A stretch of DNA of 20,934 bases from a virus (IMGVR_UViG_2703718809_000015), one strand, 5' to 3'. Numbered from the stretch's first letter, positions 1,156 to 12,598 are shown. Notes: a model not told the origin generated them from the letters alone. A program made the numbers and translations.

Positions 1156-1350
1156 TTTCTTAAATCTAACGACAGACGGCTAACATTTAAGTATTGTGAA
1201 ATATTATCAAATGTAATCATCATTGATTTACAAAAGATACATTTTGCCCCGAAAGGATTCCTGTCAGAAACATCAAAAGATGATGTTCTATACTGAGAAC
1301 CATGGCAACACGGGCATCTAAAGTGAATATGGTTTGTAATATTTTCTACC

Positions 1351-1563
1351 TCAAAGTGCCACTACATGAACAGCCGCGGGGCCTTTAGGTCCGTTCTCAA
1401 TACCAAATTCGACTTGCTGATTCTCAGTTAACGTTTTGAAATCGTTGCTCTGAATAGCTGAGAAATGGACAAACACATCTTTGCTACCATCTTTCGGCGT
1501 GATGAAACCAAAACCTTTTTCAGGGTTAAACCATTTCACTAAACCAGTCATTTTGTTAGACAT
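1351..1563 (-). CDS. cspI: Cold-shock protein, CspA family (CspI-like, 70 aa)
   Basis: Translation [26 protein letters not shown]...[13 protein letters not shown] carries the RNP-1-like motif KGFGFI and VFVHF. Tandem ATGs at 1561-1566 with AAGG upstream. Long AT-rich 5' region at 1567-1930, typical of csp genes. Confidence 0.85.
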
Positions 1564-1931
1564 CATTATTACCTTTTGAAGAAGTTAGCCCTTGGGCAGA
1601 ATGGTCCGAAAAAAATATCAGAGAGAAAAACCAACAAGGAAATCTCAAGAGGTACAAATAATAAAATTATAACAATGACTGCTTCAGATAATTTTGTAAC
1701 AAACCAGAACACCATTAACGCATGATTAACCAACCATAGCAAGGATTACTTTTGTAAAGAAAAACACACGAATGAAACAATAGCTTTATTTATTAATAAA
1801 ACGTGTCATTCTGTCTAATGACCTTTTATCTTACCCTTAAGATTTCAAGGATTTTGACTCATGGAAGAGTCCTTTTTATTTAAATTTCACATTCAGCACT
1901 AAAAATAATCCGATTTAATGTTAATCTACAT

Positions 1932-2953
<1,022 letters not shown>

Positions 2954-3058
2954 GGATATTTATCAGGATTTATCGGTTTCTGAACCCTGGATATGTTTAT
3001 CTGTCCCGGCCTGTTGAATCAGGCGGGGAAAAGGTAAAGACAATCAAGAGGATTATTT

Positions 3059-3331
3059 ATGGACAATAACACCATTTCTCTACAGGAGTTGCTCGACTGC
3101 ATTTCAAAGCTTCGGGATGATGTAAATGCCCTCACTGTTGCATTTTCATATTTGGCCTTATCAATTCCCAGAGAACAAATGCAACCAACACTGGCATCGC
3201 TCCTGCTTGAATCACGCAACCCCAAATGGTCCCAGGAACAACAAAATTCTTTCAAGTGGCTGGCGGCATTACTGGAAGAAAAATATGCTGGTAAAATTAC
3301 CATTTCGGTGGAGTCTTCAGAGAATCAGTAA
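3059..3331 (+). CDS. Hypothetical protein (90 aa) encoded antisense within the lysis cassette
   Basis: ATG at 3059 preceded by AGAGGA with 7-nt spacing; fills the otherwise empty 343-bp gap between the endolysin start and the YdfR-like stop; ordinary amino-acid composition. No family recognised. Confidence 0.4.
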   Translation: MDNNTISLQELLDCISKLRDDVNALTVAFSYLALSIPREQMQPTLASLLLESRNPKWSQEQQNSFKWLAALLEEKYAGKITISVESSENQ

Positions 3332-3641
3332 TTCTTCCTGGTGGCTTTCCTTTGTAGGTTATCCACACATTCTGCGCCTCTAAAATTATGGGGCGCTTTT
3401 CCGGCGACTGCTCATCCCCTACACATAACCCGGCAGCAACATCCAGGAATACCTGTCTGATTCTCATTCTGGCTGCTGCCTCATAAAACTCCAGCGCGGC
3501 ACCTTCAACACGGTCCAGCGAGATGTCCAGGTCAAAAATTTCACCGTCAAAGCGTTTTTTGTCCCGTAAGGCTACAGTTACCGCCACTTTATTCTCAAAA
3601 TTGCGGACTCCTTTCACAACCAGTTCATAGTCTTGTGTCAT
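3297..3641 (-). CDS. YdfR-like protein (114 aa from the ATG at 3639-3641) between holin and endolysin
   Basis: Occupies the position that ydfR holds between essQ and rrrQ in K-12 Qin. The track ORF begins at a TTG at 3662; the first ATG gives MTQDYELVVKG.... Confidence 0.5.
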   Translation of the reverse strand: MTQDYELVVKGVRNFENKVAVTVALRDKKRFDGEIFDLDISLDRVEGAALEFYEAAARMRIRQVFLDVAAGLCVGDEQSPEKRPIILEAQNVWITYKGKPPGRITDSLKTPPKW

Positions 3642-3645
3642 TGGA

Positions 3646-3861
3646 TTACTCTCTTCTCGCAACCTTACGCCTGTCTTCTTTAATCTTGAAATAAAGGTTT
3701 GTCAGATACGTCAGCAGGCCAAAAACCAGACTACCCAGCACACCGATTGCAGCCCACTGTGACGGAGTTACTTTATCGAGTAACTGCAATGCCCAGAAAC
3801 CAGCATTACCAGCCGATGTGCCATAGGCGATACCTGTTGTTAACTTATCCATTGATTTCAT
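3646..3861 (-). CDS. Class II holin / pinholin (S21-like), 71 aa, dual-start motif
   Basis: Translation [71 protein letters not shown]: two transmembrane helices, charged C-terminus, Met1-Lys-Ser-Met4 dual start as in phage 21 S. Upstream of a SAR endolysin. Confidence 0.85.
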
Positions 3862-4079: not shown

Positions 4080-4250
4080 ATGTCAGAACGTAAAGACTCA
4101 AAATCACGCCGTAATTATCTCGTTAAATGTTCCTGCCCAAACTGCACCCAAGAGTCAGAACACAGTTTTTCAAGAGTACAAAAAGGTGCCCTTTTGATCT
4201 GCCCTCATTGCAACAAAGTATTCCAGACAAATCTTAAAGCTGTAGCTTGA
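4080..4250 (+). CDS. Small zinc-ribbon protein (56 aa), possibly YnfU-like
   Basis: Translation MSERKDSKSRRNYLVKCSCPNCTQESEHSFSRVQKGALLICPHCNKVFQTNLKAVA has two CxxC pairs (CPNC, CPHC). AGGAAAA precedes the ATG at 4080; a terminator follows. Confidence 0.55.
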   Translation: MSERKDSKSRRNYLVKCSCPNCTQESEHSFSRVQKGALLICPHCNKVFQTNLKAVA

Positions 4251-4338: not shown

Positions 4339-4613
4339 GTGGTACTTTTTGTGGGAGTCATCCACTTACGCACTTTGTTTTGCTATGCCAGCAGTTAGCT
4401 TCTGCTGTAAAACTATTCATGCAGCAAACCTGCACTTCACCACAATGGTTAGCATACTTTTCCTGATTAAGTTATTGCCAAATATGCTGGCCATTGTTTC
4501 ATGTATTGGACCTCCTTACTATTTATTAAAGAGATCCAATATTCACCACTCTGTCTGTATCTCCACTCAGGCATCAGCCTTCTTCGTTATCGTATACAGA
4601 CAAACTATGAATT

Positions 4614-4829
4614 TTAATCAGTAATTATGACATTTGCTGCTGCAGGACCTTTAGCACCACTCTCTACAGAGAAGGTAACCTTTTGACCTTCAAATAAGGT
4701 TCGATAATTATCATTCTGAATCGCAGAAAAATGCACAAACACATCTTTACTACCATCAACAGGAGAAATAAAGCCAAAACCTTTATCAGCGTTAAACCAT
4801 TTTACTAAACCAGTCATTTTATTTGACAT
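4614..4829 (-). CDS. cspB: Cold-shock protein, CspA family (CspB-like, 71 aa)
   Basis: Translation [71 protein letters not shown]; divergent from the cspF/H-like gene, as cspB-cspF are in Qin. Confidence 0.85.
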
Positions 4830-5129
4830 TCTACATTCCTTAACTTGAGCCTTTCGGCATAAATGGCTTGTATAACAGAAACGACTTCGTACTTAATTGG
4901 AGAGACTCAAAGAAGGAATAAGTGAATAACACCTGAAATGAGAACTGCTTTAGTAAACTACTTCGTATATCGTCTGTTCTTCAAACCGACGCAATCATTA
5001 ACGCATAGTTGAACATATGAAGCAATGTTTATTTTAGACATCCAGCCATCTTCAACCCCATCAAAAAACTATAGCTTTCTTCAGGAACGTGTGTATAGTG
5101 CGCCAAGTTATCAGTATTAAGGAATTTTT

Positions 5130-11453: not shown

Positions 11454-12598
11454 TTGCGCCCCCTTACCTCTGAAGGGTTCAGCGACAAATTTATGAGGCA
11501 GGCCAGTGCCGAAGCATCATTAATATAGTCATACAAGCTAACAGCCAGCGGAGATTCGGCTTTTGCCAACATAGGATAAAGCTGCTGCAGCCAGACCTGA
11601 TGAATTGATGAAATGTAGGAATAGAGAATGCTGGCGTTATGTGCAACGTCGCTCGGTACAGAGGGTTTTGAAAGCTGTTTCTCCATCTGGTTAAAGGCAT
11701 TGATATATGCCTCTTTGAACTGGGCAGCACGTTTACCCGTGAAACCCATAGCAAGAAACGCAAAGCCGTCGCGGGTTATTTGATAGCAAGGTAGTTTGCG
11801 GCCTGATGCGTCGATGTACTCACTGAGCTGGAAATTCAGCTCAGTAAATTCGGCAGAGCATTCAAGAGACGCAATTTTTTGAATGACATTTTTGTGTTGT
11901 TTGCCGAAATAACTAGCAACAGCCAGAGAAGAAGTAACAACTTTGTCTGCAATAATGCAAAGTTCAGGTTGTACTAAGGCAGGGATCGTAGCCATGATGG
12001 CAGCCTCCGTATGCAATGGATAACTTCCACCACCGGAAACGCCAATTTCGCTGGTGGTGAACTGAGCAGGGTTGGCGTAACCGGCGCATACGGAAACCGG
12101 CGCACCTTTCGGTGCCCCCACCCAGCCCACCATAATTTGGGTATAGCTGAGTTGTAGCAACAAAAAAGACGCTAACGCGCCAATTGTCGCCGTATGCAAT
12201 TCCAGGACGCCAATCCCGGCACCCGCTTTATAAGGTGCCTGAACAGTGTAACGTCCCGGAATGGCAGAATCAATGTGCTGGTGGTCCTTCACACTCAACA
12301 AAATCACGCCTGAATTTCCACAAAGGACTAAAGCACTCATGCGGGTAGTCTTTGCGAAGATAGATAACGCGCTGTGTTTCTGGCTCCCAACGAATAACAT
12401 GAACATAAAGTCCTCTTCCGTCACGAAACCAGCGGTTAAGTTCCTGCACAACTCGCCCCCCACAGTCAGGTAAAGTTCTCTGTGGTTACTTACAGCCAGG
12501 TGATTTGGTAATCTGCATTCATGCCGTAACAACAGGTGTTCAGCCACGCGGACCACCAGCTGTTGCGACCAACGGTTATTTGCCGTTAAACTGTTCAT
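11450..12598 (-). CDS. Rha-domain phage regulatory protein; 382-aa ORF with an unrecognised about-200-aa N-terminal extension (alternative internal start at 11995 gives about 181 aa)
   Basis: C-terminal half LAVASYFGKQHKNVIQKI...GRKLPCYQITRDGFAFLAMGFTGKRAAQFKEAYINAFNQMEKQL matches the Rha signature. The ATG at 12596-12598 overlaps the stop of the upstream gene (ATGA); a second ATG at 11993-11995 has GGAGG 8 nt upstream. Confidence 0.6.
   Translation of the reverse strand: MNSLTANNRWSQQLVVRVAEHLLLRHECRLPNHLAVSNHRELYLTVGGELCRNLTAGFVTEEDFMFMLFVGSQKHSALSIFAKTTRMSALVLCGNSGVILLSVKDHQHIDSAIPGRYTVQAPYKAGAGIGVLELHTATIGALASFLLLQLSYTQIMVGWVGAPKGAPVSVCAGYANPAQFTTSEIGVSGGGSYPLHTEAAIMATIPALVQPELCIIADKVVTSSLAVASYFGKQHKNVIQKIASLECSAEFTELNFQLSEYIDASGRKLPCYQITRDGFAFLAMGFTGKRAAQFKEAYINAFNQMEKQLSKPSVPSDVAHNASILYSYISSIHQVWLQQLYPMLAKAESPLAVSLYDYINDASALACLINLSLNPSEVRGRK

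What the first reader, a model, noticed from the sequence alone, without database searches (positions are those of the whole stretch)
3059..3331. Antisense ORF with a strong ribosome-binding site inside the lysis cassette
A 90-aa plus-strand ORF with AGAGGA 7 nt upstream of its ATG fills the otherwise unexplained 343-bp gap between the endolysin start and the YdfR-like stop. It is convergent with the YdfR-like gene and overlaps it by 35 nt. A gene transcribed against the late operon would be made independently of Q and could modulate lysis or act as a lysogenic-state moron.
Basis: seen in the sequence. Interest (0 to 1): 0.4.

Follow-up and report, generated by a model that had tools for sequence, protein, structure and literature searches.

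The report
Conserved antisense moron gene in prophage lysis cassette
The 90-codon reading frame that runs against the lysis genes of this E. coli Qin-like prophage is a real protein-coding gene under selection, already catalogued as a hypothetical protein; it is an optional inserted accessory gene ("moron") of unknown function, and nothing shows that it regulates lysis.

Summary
An ATG ORF of 90 codons lies at 3059-3331 (+). AAGAGGA sits 6 nt before the ATG. The ORF fills the 343-bp gap between rrrQ and ydfR and overlaps ydfR by 35 nt.

It is a real gene:
- It stays open in 164 of 166 related phage loci across five lineages.
- pN/pS is 0.28.
- The mirror ORF on the lysis strand carries stop codons fixed in whole lineages.
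- Homologues at 30-40% identity and the same length occur in Serratia, Chania, Chimaeribacter, Sodalis and Citrobacter.

It is not new. RefSeq lists it as hypothetical protein WP_001315200.1, and PHROGs as phrog_2411 (unknown function). About 21% of complete E. coli genomes carry it, including BL21(DE3).

It behaves as a moron:
- K-12 Qin and a second allele have the same lysis genes without it.
- A third allele holds an unrelated antisense ORF in the same slot.
- Homologues in two other prophages sit elsewhere, again antisense to the late genes.
- In Serratia and relatives it is a stand-alone chromosomal gene between dinI and bssS, which argues against a lysis-specific role.

The protein is small, acidic and three-helical, with no membrane segment and no match to a known fold or family. 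Its promoter and its expression remain untested.

The parts
3059..3331 (+). ORF90 coding sequence: 90 aa, 10.2 kDa, pI 4.6. Catalogued as RefSeq WP_001315200.1 (hypothetical protein) and phrog_2411.
   Evidence: Open in 164 of 166 loci; pN/pS 0.28. Remote homologues found. AF2 model has three helices, pLDDT 82.
3046..3052 (+). Shine-Dalgarno sequence AAGAGGA, 6 nt before the ATG.
   Evidence: The GAGGA core is kept in all five lineages. AAGGA or AAGGAG precedes the Citrobacter and Serratia homologues.
3000..3034 (+). Stable hairpin (core GCCTG / CAGGC, loop TTGAAT) about 25 nt upstream of the start codon. Possibly a 5'-UTR structure. No T-run follows it on either strand, so it is not an intrinsic terminator.
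   Evidence: dG -18.6 kcal/mol, z = -3.9. The core stem is invariant and the outer stem varies among lineages.
2954..3001 (.). Ultra-conserved 48-nt spacer between the rrrQ start codon and the hairpin. It holds the only promoter-like pair for ORF90: TTATCG (2970-2975), 16 nt, TATGTT (2992-2997). It may also, or instead, serve translation initiation of the downstream late gene.
   Evidence: Pairwise divergence is 0.008, against 0.176 at ORF90 third positions. It is kept with ORF90 in an Stx2k phage whose left neighbour is a different gene. CCCTGGATATGTT resembles CCCTGGTTATGAT upstream of the Citrobacter homologue. It falls below the threshold of the promoter scan.
3013..3300 (.). Approximate extent of the inserted cassette relative to the 'empty' allele (strain RIVM_C039227). 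The last ~10 codons of ORF90 (3302-3331) are read from the antisense of the pre-existing ydfR 3' end.
   Evidence: Alignment with L191. 47 empty alleles against 238 ORF90 alleles in IMG/VR.
3374..3400 (+). Terminator-like hairpin GCGCCTC / GGGGCGC followed by TTTT, 43 nt past the ORF90 stop and inside the ydfR tail. It could end the plus-strand transcript. It is also present in alleles without ORF90.
   Evidence: dG -13 kcal/mol, z = -2.7. Not called by the scan. Same sequence in L191/L275.
3297..3641 (-). YdfR-family gene (DUF1327, 114 aa). Convergent with ORF90 and shares 35 nt with it.
   Evidence: Pfam PF07041, E = 6e-42. Annotation.
2420..2953 (-). rrrQ lysozyme, with a hydrophobic N-terminal segment like that of SAR-type endolysins. 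It is the late gene downstream of the slot.
   Evidence: Pfam PF00959. Annotation.
3646..3861 (-). essQ, a class II (phage 21 S-type) holin and the first gene of the lysis cassette.
   Evidence: Pfam PF04971, E = 7e-34. Annotation.
3019..3303 (-). 94-codon mirror ORF on the lysis strand. It shares wobble positions with ORF90 and is not a gene.
   Evidence: Same pN/pS (0.26) by construction, but stop codons are fixed in whole lineages.

Best explanation
ORF90 is a real, translated-type gene carried as a moron. A compact cassette of roughly 290 bp is inserted, in the orientation opposite to the Q-dependent late operon, into the junction between ydfR and the endolysin gene of Qin/phage-21-type lysis modules.

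It encodes a 10-kDa acidic, soluble protein of three helices, probably oligomeric. The protein belongs to an uncharacterised Enterobacterales family. That family is a stand-alone chromosomal gene in Serratia and its relatives (between dinI and bssS) and has been picked up repeatedly by lambdoid phages.

Shown:
- Coding status and purifying selection.
- Presence/absence polymorphism.
- Antisense placement in three independent prophage contexts.
- Existence of a chromosomal branch of the family.

Inferred:
- It is transcribed on its own, most likely from the highly conserved spacer 2954-3001, giving an mRNA that begins at the foot of the 3000-3034 hairpin. Because it faces the late operon, it would be made in the lysogen or uninduced state and switched off by head-on late transcription after induction.
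- The protein acts by binding a conserved host protein rather than the lysis machinery.
For: Coding:
- pN/pS is 0.28 in the ORF90 frame, against 1.1-1.6 in four of the other five frames.
- ORF90 is open in 84 of 88 haplotypes and 164 of 166 loci. The only rival frame (minus-strand ORF94) is broken by stops fixed in three lineages.
- There are no indels over 88 haplotypes. Five database variants carry deletions in multiples of three.
- A profile search finds proteins of 81-106 aa at 28-60% identity in Citrobacter, Serratia, Sodalis, Chania, Gibbsiella, Chimaeribacter and Acerihabitans, sharing an AFSYLAF...ES.N motif.
- AF2 reaches pLDDT 82 with a 56-sequence alignment.

Moron:
- It is absent from K-12 Qin and from 47 IMG/VR loci that have the same YdfR tail.
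- An unrelated 79-aa ORF (phrog_21218) occupies the same slot and strand in strain S43.
- G+C is 42.9%, against 47.5% for ydfR and 51.3% for rrrQ.
- Homologues sit antisense upstream of the holin in a Citrobacter prophage and antisense upstream of the terminase region in another prophage.

Not lysis-specific:
- Chromosomal synteny is pyrC-dinI-X-bssS-solA in Serratia, Chania and Chimaeribacter, and pyrC-X-bssS-solA in Acerihabitans.
- There is no transmembrane segment.

Own expression signals:
- The SD is conserved.
- The spacer 2954-3001 is about 20 times more conserved than ORF90 third-codon positions (0.008 against 0.176), and it travels with ORF90 when the left neighbour changes.

Precedent:
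- The plus-strand gene ynfU next to essQ in the same cassette is well expressed from the K-12 Qin prophage in stationary phase (bioRxiv 10.1101/511675).
Against: - No sigma-70 promoter passes the consensus scan in 2954-3058. The best manual candidate matches only 7 of 12 positions.
- Part of the conserved spacer is also present in alleles without ORF90, so its conservation may reflect a role in the late transcript instead.
- No cassette-borne terminator was found.
- There are no expression data for this gene and no literature on it.
- Function is not indicated by Pfam, NCBIfam, PADLOC, PDB sequence search or two Foldseek searches.
- Frameshifted and truncated copies are not rare in protein databases. 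That is expected in decaying prophages, but it also shows the gene is dispensable.
Confidence: 0.6

Rival explanations
1. ORF90 modulates lysis. It could act as a protein that tunes the pinholin, the SAR-endolysin or YdfR. Alternatively, its convergent transcript could pair with the late mRNA between ydfR and rrrQ, triggering RNase III cleavage or transcriptional interference and so setting endolysin dosage or lysis timing.
For: - In Escherichia it always lies inside the lysis cassette, in all 178 IMG/VR loci.
- It overlaps ydfR by 35 nt.
- Its whole transcript would be complementary to the late mRNA.
- K-12 YdfR binds the RNase E catalytic domain and may bind RNA (PMC13232886).
Against: - The same holin, ydfR and endolysin genes work without it in common alleles.
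- The protein has no membrane or periplasmic targeting.
- Selection acts on the protein sequence, not only on the RNA.
- Homologues are chromosomal genes next to bssS (and dinI in three of the four genera) with no lysis genes nearby.
- In two other prophages the homologue sits outside the holin-endolysin interval.
Confidence: 0.12
2. ORF90 is a prophage-encoded defence or superinfection-exclusion factor, or one half of an addiction module, expressed in the lysogen to block other phages or stabilise the prophage.
For: - Morons in antisense orientation near lysis genes are often lysogen-expressed fitness or exclusion factors (general knowledge; lambda bor is an example).
- The slot is a hot spot holding alternative cassettes.
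- One distant family member gave a weak PADLOC hit, PDC-M71B at E = 0.005.
Against: - The window protein itself has no PADLOC hit, and only 1 of 14 family members gave a marginal one.
- No partner gene travels with it.
- In Serratia, Chania and Chimaeribacter it keeps a fixed syntenic position, which is typical of a housekeeping or stress gene and not of a defence island.
Confidence: 0.15
3. ORF90 is not a gene. It is the antisense shadow of a lysis-strand gene (ORF94, 3019-3303, whose ATG overlaps the end of ydfR as ATGGTAA), or the region is a conserved non-coding element that happens to be open.
For: - ORF94 is co-directional with the lysis genes.
- It could be translationally coupled to ydfR.
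- It shows the same pN/pS (0.26) because it shares wobble positions with ORF90.
- ORF length alone is only p of about 0.05.
Against: - The ORF94 frame carries stop codons fixed in whole lineages: codon 24 in the largest lineage, codons 7 and 34 in another, and near the end in a third. ORF90 stays open in all of them.
- ORF94 has no SD.
- Protein homologues of ORF90 at 30-40% identity exist in unrelated genomic contexts.
- The AF2 model is confident.
Confidence: 0.03

Closest known systems
RefSeq WP_001315200.1 / WP_000370546.1 'hypothetical protein' and PHROG family phrog_2411 (unknown function)
   Same: It is the same gene. The RefSeq CDS has identical coordinates in 100%-identical genomes. 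The PHROG match is full length, 1-90 of 90, at E = 5e-57. It is present in BL21(DE3), and one UniRef record names it 'Ybl58'.
   Different: Nothing differs in the gene itself. These records carry no function, no family description beyond phages, and no note of the chromosomal relatives in Serratia and its allies.
Lambdoid-phage morons, e.g. lambda bor (own knowledge: Barondess and Beckwith; moron concept from Juhala/Hendrix, HK97/HK022)
   Same: - A small accessory gene inserted at a gene boundary of the late region.
- Oriented against late transcription, next to the lysis genes.
- Present in some otherwise colinear phages and absent in others.
- Lower G+C than its neighbours.
   Different: - bor encodes an exported lipoprotein with a demonstrated lysogen promoter and a serum-resistance phenotype.
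- ORF90 is a soluble acidic helical protein with no demonstrated promoter, terminator or phenotype.
- ORF90 sits inside the cassette, between ydfR and the endolysin gene, rather than after Rz.
YnfU of the K-12 Qin prophage (also in this window at 4080-4250, + strand)
   Same: It is another small plus-strand gene embedded antisense in the same lysis region, upstream of essQ. Its protein was detected from the cryptic prophage without induction, which shows that antisense genes here can be expressed in the lysogen.
   Different: The sequence and fold are unrelated: YnfU is a zinc-knuckle protein of 56 aa. It occupies a different slot, and it is present in K-12 whereas ORF90 is not.
Alternative cassette in the same slot: 79-aa ORF of E. 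coli S43 (WP_032264896.1, phrog_21218)
   Same: Same slot, same strand, same upstream spacer through GGATATGTT, and convergent overlap with ydfR.
   Different: The protein sequence is unrelated. Its 5' hairpin (CGTCAGTG-GTAGGA-CACTGGCG) differs from the window's, yet matches the one upstream of the Citrobacter homologue of ORF90.

Membership tests
phrog_2411 / RefSeq WP_001315200 protein cluster | Full-length profile match with a significant E-value | tested here: met
   E = 4.9e-57, residues 1-90 matched to profile positions 1-90 of 90. The identical protein is annotated at the same place in RefSeq genomes and is seen on at least 1000 contigs.
Moron (Hendrix/Juhala sense) | Present in some genomes and absent from otherwise colinear relatives, with sharp boundaries at a gene junction | tested here: met
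   K-12 Qin lacks it. 47 IMG/VR loci and strain RIVM_C039227 have the same YdfR tail with only a 63-nt spacer. Cassette borders are about 3013 and 3300.
Moron (Hendrix/Juhala sense) | Base composition different from the neighbouring genes | tested here: met
   G+C is 42.9% for ORF90, 47.5% for ydfR and 51.3% for rrrQ.
Moron (Hendrix/Juhala sense) | Own promoter upstream and own terminator downstream | tested here: inconclusive
   There is no scan hit in 2954-3058. A weak manual candidate is TTATCG-16 nt-TATGTT inside a 48-nt block with divergence 0.008. A hairpin followed by T4 at 3374-3400 lies outside the cassette.
Moron (Hendrix/Juhala sense) | Expressed from the repressed prophage | not testable with these tools
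   No transcript or protein data are available here, and no literature was found.
Lysis regulators (antiholins; regulators of SAR endolysins or holins) | Membrane or periplasmic targeting that allows contact with the holin or endolysin | tested here: not met
   The maximum Kyte-Doolittle 19-residue window is 0.93, pI is 4.6 and GRAVY is -0.32. AF2 gives a soluble three-helix protein.
Lysis regulators (antiholins; regulators of SAR endolysins or holins) | Obligate co-occurrence with lysis genes across the family | tested here: not met
   Homologues in Serratia, Chania, Chimaeribacter, Acerihabitans and Sodalis are chromosomal with no lysis gene nearby.
Known anti-phage defence or toxin-antitoxin proteins | Profile match to a PADLOC model, or a conserved adjacent partner gene | tested here: not met
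   The window protein has no PADLOC hit, and 1 of 14 relatives gave a marginal hit at E = 0.005. Neighbours differ between contexts.
Any Pfam, NCBIfam or solved-structure family | Significant sequence or fold match | tested here: not met
   Pfam gave 0 families for the window protein; 14 family members scanned singly gave only isolated noise hits. NCBIfam gave 0. The PDB profile search gave 0. Foldseek against PDB and BFVD gave a best E of at least 0.4.

The most novel reading that the evidence does not exclude
ORF90 could belong to a host-derived family of small regulators. In Serratia and its relatives the gene sits between the SOS gene dinI and the biofilm gene bssS, within a few kb of rne. 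Lambdoid phages would have captured it repeatedly and always installed it head-on to their late operon.

In that arrangement the lysogen would make a protein that rewires a conserved host stress, SOS or RNA-decay node, possibly together with the RNase E-binding YdfR next door. The same transcript would also act as a built-in antisense brake on endolysin expression until Q-driven transcription overrides it.
Probability: 0.1. Interest if true: 0.55.

Novelty: new member of a known kind. Interest (0 to 1): 0.27.

Why it matters
About one in five complete E. coli genomes carries this gene, including the workhorse BL21(DE3) and an Stx2k-converting phage, yet it has no name, no Pfam family and no literature.

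The work here upgrades it from 'hypothetical ORF' to a demonstrably selected protein family. The family has a chromosomal branch in Serratia-like bacteria and a phage-borne branch that is always antisense to late genes. The ydfR/endolysin junction also emerges as a hot spot where small antisense cassettes are exchanged.

That gives a cheap, well-defined target for functional work on lysogen-expressed prophage genes. It remains an ordinary kind of object (a moron), and nothing found here points to a new mechanism.

Tried and rejected
- **Mirror ORF94 on the minus strand as the true gene.** Rejected: its pN/pS equals that of ORF90 because the two share wobble positions, but stops are fixed in whole lineages.
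- **Function by homology.** Pfam, NCBIfam, PADLOC, PDB sequence-profile search, Foldseek against PDB (two models) and Foldseek against BFVD all returned nothing significant.
- **Rfam.** No RNA family in 2800-3700; there was only a sub-threshold chance hit.
- **Promoter and terminator scan.** Nothing in 2954-3058. I found no LexA box by eye upstream of ORF90. The LexA box in the Serratia locus belongs to dinI, which has its own terminator before the homologue.
- **Mobile unit as a convergent gene pair.** The 63-aa gene overlapping the Citrobacter homologue shows no evident similarity, by inspection, to the YdfR tail.
- **The 3000-3034 hairpin as a terminator.** No T-run follows it on either strand, and variation in the outer stem is mixed, so covariation is not convincing.
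- **Literature.** Searches for the accessions, 'ybl58' and phrog_2411 found nothing.
- **Conserved promoter motif upstream of the Serratia and Chania homologues.** The alignment showed nothing interpretable.

Full report
**Setting**

The window is a Qin-like lambdoid prophage of E. coli. It is 100% identical over 2900-3700 to strains Z247, M-17 and ES1. The lysis cassette runs on the minus strand:
- essQ, a class II holin (3646-3861)
- a YdfR-family gene, DUF1327, 114 aa (3297-3641)
- rrrQ, a lysozyme (2420-2953)
- rzpQ (1932-2423)

**Observation**

- The ATG ORF spans 3059-3331 on the + strand and has 90 codons.
- AAGAGGA lies at 3046-3052, with a 6-nt spacer before the ATG.
- The gap 2954-3296 is 343 bp.
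- The convergent overlap with ydfR is 35 nt.

ORF length alone is only marginal evidence: 104 of 2000 dinucleotide-preserving shuffles reach 90 codons.

**Already annotated**

RefSeq/PGAP calls exactly this CDS 'hypothetical protein' WP_001315200.1 in Z247 and in O55:H7 CB9615. In BL21(DE3) it is WP_000370546.1. PHROGs holds it as phrog_2411, unknown function (E = 5e-57, full length). The exact protein occurs on at least 1000 contigs, and one UniRef record names it 'Ybl58'. There is no Pfam or NCBIfam family and no paper.

**Is it a gene?**

Three IMG/VR scans gave 178 loci, all colinear as rrrQ-ORF90-ydfR-essQ. These contain 88 distinct haplotypes of window 2800-3700 with no indel in the ORF. 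They fall into five lineages, down to 85% nucleotide identity.

Pooled Nei-Gojobori counts give the following:

| Frame or gene | pN/pS |
|---|---|
| ORF90 frame, whole | 0.28 |
| ORF90 frame, N-terminal half | 0.17 |
| ORF90 frame, C-terminal half | 0.40 |
| Four of the other five frames | 1.1-1.6 |
| rrrQ | 0.135 |
| ydfR | 0.43-0.68 |

The remaining frame is a 94-codon minus-strand ORF (3019-3303). It shares wobble positions with ORF90 and therefore scores 0.26. It was a serious rival because it is co-directional with the lysis genes and its ATG overlaps the ydfR stop (ATGGTAA). Reading-frame integrity settles the matter. ORF90 is open in 84 of 88 haplotypes and 164 of 166 loci; two haplotypes lose only the last codon and two are singleton nonsense mutants. 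ORF94 carries stops fixed in three whole lineages.

Database variants include five in-frame deletions and also a tail of frameshifted copies. That is as expected for decaying prophages.

**Family**

A profile search of 1.84 billion cluster representatives, followed by a second profile search, found relatives of 81-106 aa at 28-60% identity. They occur in Citrobacter, many Serratia species, Sodalis, Chania, Gibbsiella, Chimaeribacter and Acerihabitans, and share an ELL..I...L..L..AFSYLAF....ES.N....F..LA motif.

With 56 sequences AF2 gives pLDDT 82. The model has helices at 8-34, 38-52 and 59-76 and a disordered tail at 81-90. The protein has pI 4.6 and no transmembrane segment. No significant match came from Foldseek against PDB or BFVD, from the PDB sequence-profile search, or from Pfam or PADLOC scans of family members.

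**Contexts of relatives**

- In Serratia marcescens, Chania and Chimaeribacter the gene is a stand-alone chromosomal gene in pyrC-dinI-X-bssS-solA. In Acerihabitans the order is pyrC-X-bssS-solA. rne lies a few kb upstream in the Serratia, Chania and Acerihabitans loci.
- In Serratia, dinI has its own LexA box and terminator, and X has its own AAGGAG Shine-Dalgarno sequence.
- In Sodalis and in an uncultured lineage the gene is isolated among unrelated genes.
- In a Citrobacter freundii prophage the 60%-identical homologue lies on the strand opposite the late genes and upstream of the holin.
- A 39%-identical homologue lies antisense upstream of the terminase region of another prophage.

So the phage-borne copies occupy three different slots, always head-on to late transcription. 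The chromosomal copies have nothing to do with lysis.

**Presence and absence**

The module 2964-3435 is present nearly full length in 1130 of 5426 complete E. coli genomes. Four alleles exist at the ydfR/endolysin junction:
- (a) K-12 Qin: a 103-aa YdfR abuts rrrQ.
- (b) Strain RIVM_C039227 and 47 IMG/VR loci: the same long YdfR tail, a 63-nt spacer and no ORF90.
- (c) The window.
- (d) Strain S43: an unrelated 79-aa plus-strand ORF (phrog_21218) in the same slot.

Comparing alleles b and c places the cassette at about 3013-3300. The last ~10 codons of ORF90, which form the disordered and poorly conserved tail, are therefore read from the antisense of the pre-existing ydfR end. ORF90 has 42.9% G+C, against 47.5% for ydfR and 51.3% for rrrQ. 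Inducible phages carry the gene too: Chlobot, vB_EcoS-783R2 and phiSTEC1575-Stx2k.

**Expression signals**

The GAGGA core of the SD is kept in all lineages. The consensus scan finds no sigma-70 promoter in 2954-3058.

The 48 nt at 2954-3001 are nevertheless almost invariant. Pairwise divergence there is 0.008, against 0.176 at ORF90 third positions and 0.145 in the next 44 nt.
- The block stays with ORF90 in the Stx2k phage, where the left neighbour is a different gene.
- It is shared up to GGATATGTT with the unrelated S43 cassette.
- Its CCCTGGATATGTT resembles CCCTGGTTATGAT upstream of the Citrobacter homologue at a different locus.
- All 238 ORF90 alleles have the GATATG version and all 47 empty alleles have GGACAGG or GGGCAGG. 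This may be mere linkage.

A weak promoter, TTATCG-16 nt-TATGTT, would start the mRNA at the foot of a stable hairpin at 3000-3034 (dG -18.6 kcal/mol, z = -3.9). This is inference. The block could instead serve the late transcript. A hairpin followed by T4 at 3374-3400 could terminate the plus-strand transcript, but it is not part of the cassette.

As a precedent, the plus-strand gene ynfU beside essQ is well expressed from the uninduced K-12 Qin prophage.

**Interpretation**

ORF90 is best explained as a moron. It is an independently evolving, horizontally shuffled accessory gene inserted antisense in the late region. It encodes a small soluble helical protein whose relatives are conserved chromosomal genes in Serratia-like bacteria.

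A lysis-specific role is unlikely for three reasons: the lysis cassette exists without it, the protein has no targeting to the envelope, and its relatives are not linked to lysis genes. An antisense-RNA side effect on the late transcript cannot be excluded.

[quoted passage not shown] Homology between the window and K-12 breaks at about residue 69 of YdfR, so only the C-terminal tail differs. Allele b shows that this tail variant exists without ORF90, so the two are separable.

**Verdict**

- It is catalogued but uncharacterised, so it counts as a new member of a known kind.
- Interest is modest.

Noticed in passing
window 2954-3001: This 48-nt non-coding block between the rrrQ start codon and the hairpin is nearly invariant across five lineages. 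Its divergence is 0.008, against 0.176 at neighbouring third-codon positions. It is retained when the adjacent late gene is swapped in an Stx2k phage. It could be a promoter for the antisense cassette or an element of the late mRNA.
   Followed up: partly
L193 1625-1864 (E. coli S43), equivalent to the window slot 2998-3300: An unrelated 79-aa plus-strand ORF (WP_032264896.1, phrog_21218) occupies the same ydfR/endolysin junction behind the same spacer. The junction therefore looks like a hot spot for exchangeable antisense cassettes.
   Followed up: partly
L183 4927-4948; L193 1547-1568; L317 3927-3948: An 8-bp hairpin, CGCCAGTG-GTAGGA-CACTGGCG, lies 50-80 nt upstream of the start codon of the Citrobacter ORF90 homologue, of the unrelated S43 ORF79, and of a 39%-identical prophage homologue. 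The last one reads CGACTGTG-GTGGGA-CACAGTCG, with two compensatory pair changes. The loop carries GGA, so a CsrA-type site is a speculation. The element is absent from the window.
   Followed up: partly
window 3297-3435 against K-12 (L003 5055-5160): YdfR is mosaic. Homology to K-12 YdfR ends at about residue 69, close to the end of the RNase E-binding region (residues 1-72) mapped in PMC13232886. PHROGs holds at least five YdfR families that share the N-terminal domain and differ in their C-terminal parts, with lengths of 105-296 aa.
   Followed up: partly
window 4080-4250 (+): ynfU, encoding a zinc-knuckle small protein, is another plus-strand gene antisense to the late operon, just upstream of essQ. 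The ORF90 homologue occupies the same relative position in the Citrobacter prophage.
   Followed up: partly
window 1976-2272 (-): An ORF embedded in rzpQ in another frame contains a lipobox-like LTSC. This looks like the Rz1/rzoQ-type o-spanin. It is annotated in K-12 (rzoQ) but not in the RefSeq record of the identical strain Z247.
   Followed up: no
window 1305-1720 (-), 4551-4990 (-), 12050-12137 (-), 12162-12238 (-): Rfam gathering-level hits: two cspA-type thermoregulator leaders (for cspI and cspB), a C4 antisense RNA, and the isrK Hfq-binding sRNA.
   Followed up: no
L313 2285-4303 (phage phiSTEC1575-Stx2k): This Stx2k phage has the class II holin-ydfR-ORF90 segment followed directly by a second, different lysis set: two holin-like genes and an M15 peptidase in place of rrrQ. 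An IraM-like anti-adaptor gene lies antisense between stx2 and the holin.
   Followed up: no
L258 (IMG/VR 2859821903_000002): In one locus the spacer is interrupted right after GGATATG by sequence that looks like an insertion element. This may be further evidence that the site is insertion-prone.
   Followed up: no
L192 (BL21(DE3), NZ_CP081489.1 2255094-2261565): In BL21(DE3) the essD-ydfR-ORF90-rrrQ lysis segment sits between trkG and the ydaF/sieB/kilR genes. The cassette therefore lies inside a Rac-type prophage remnant.
   Followed up: no
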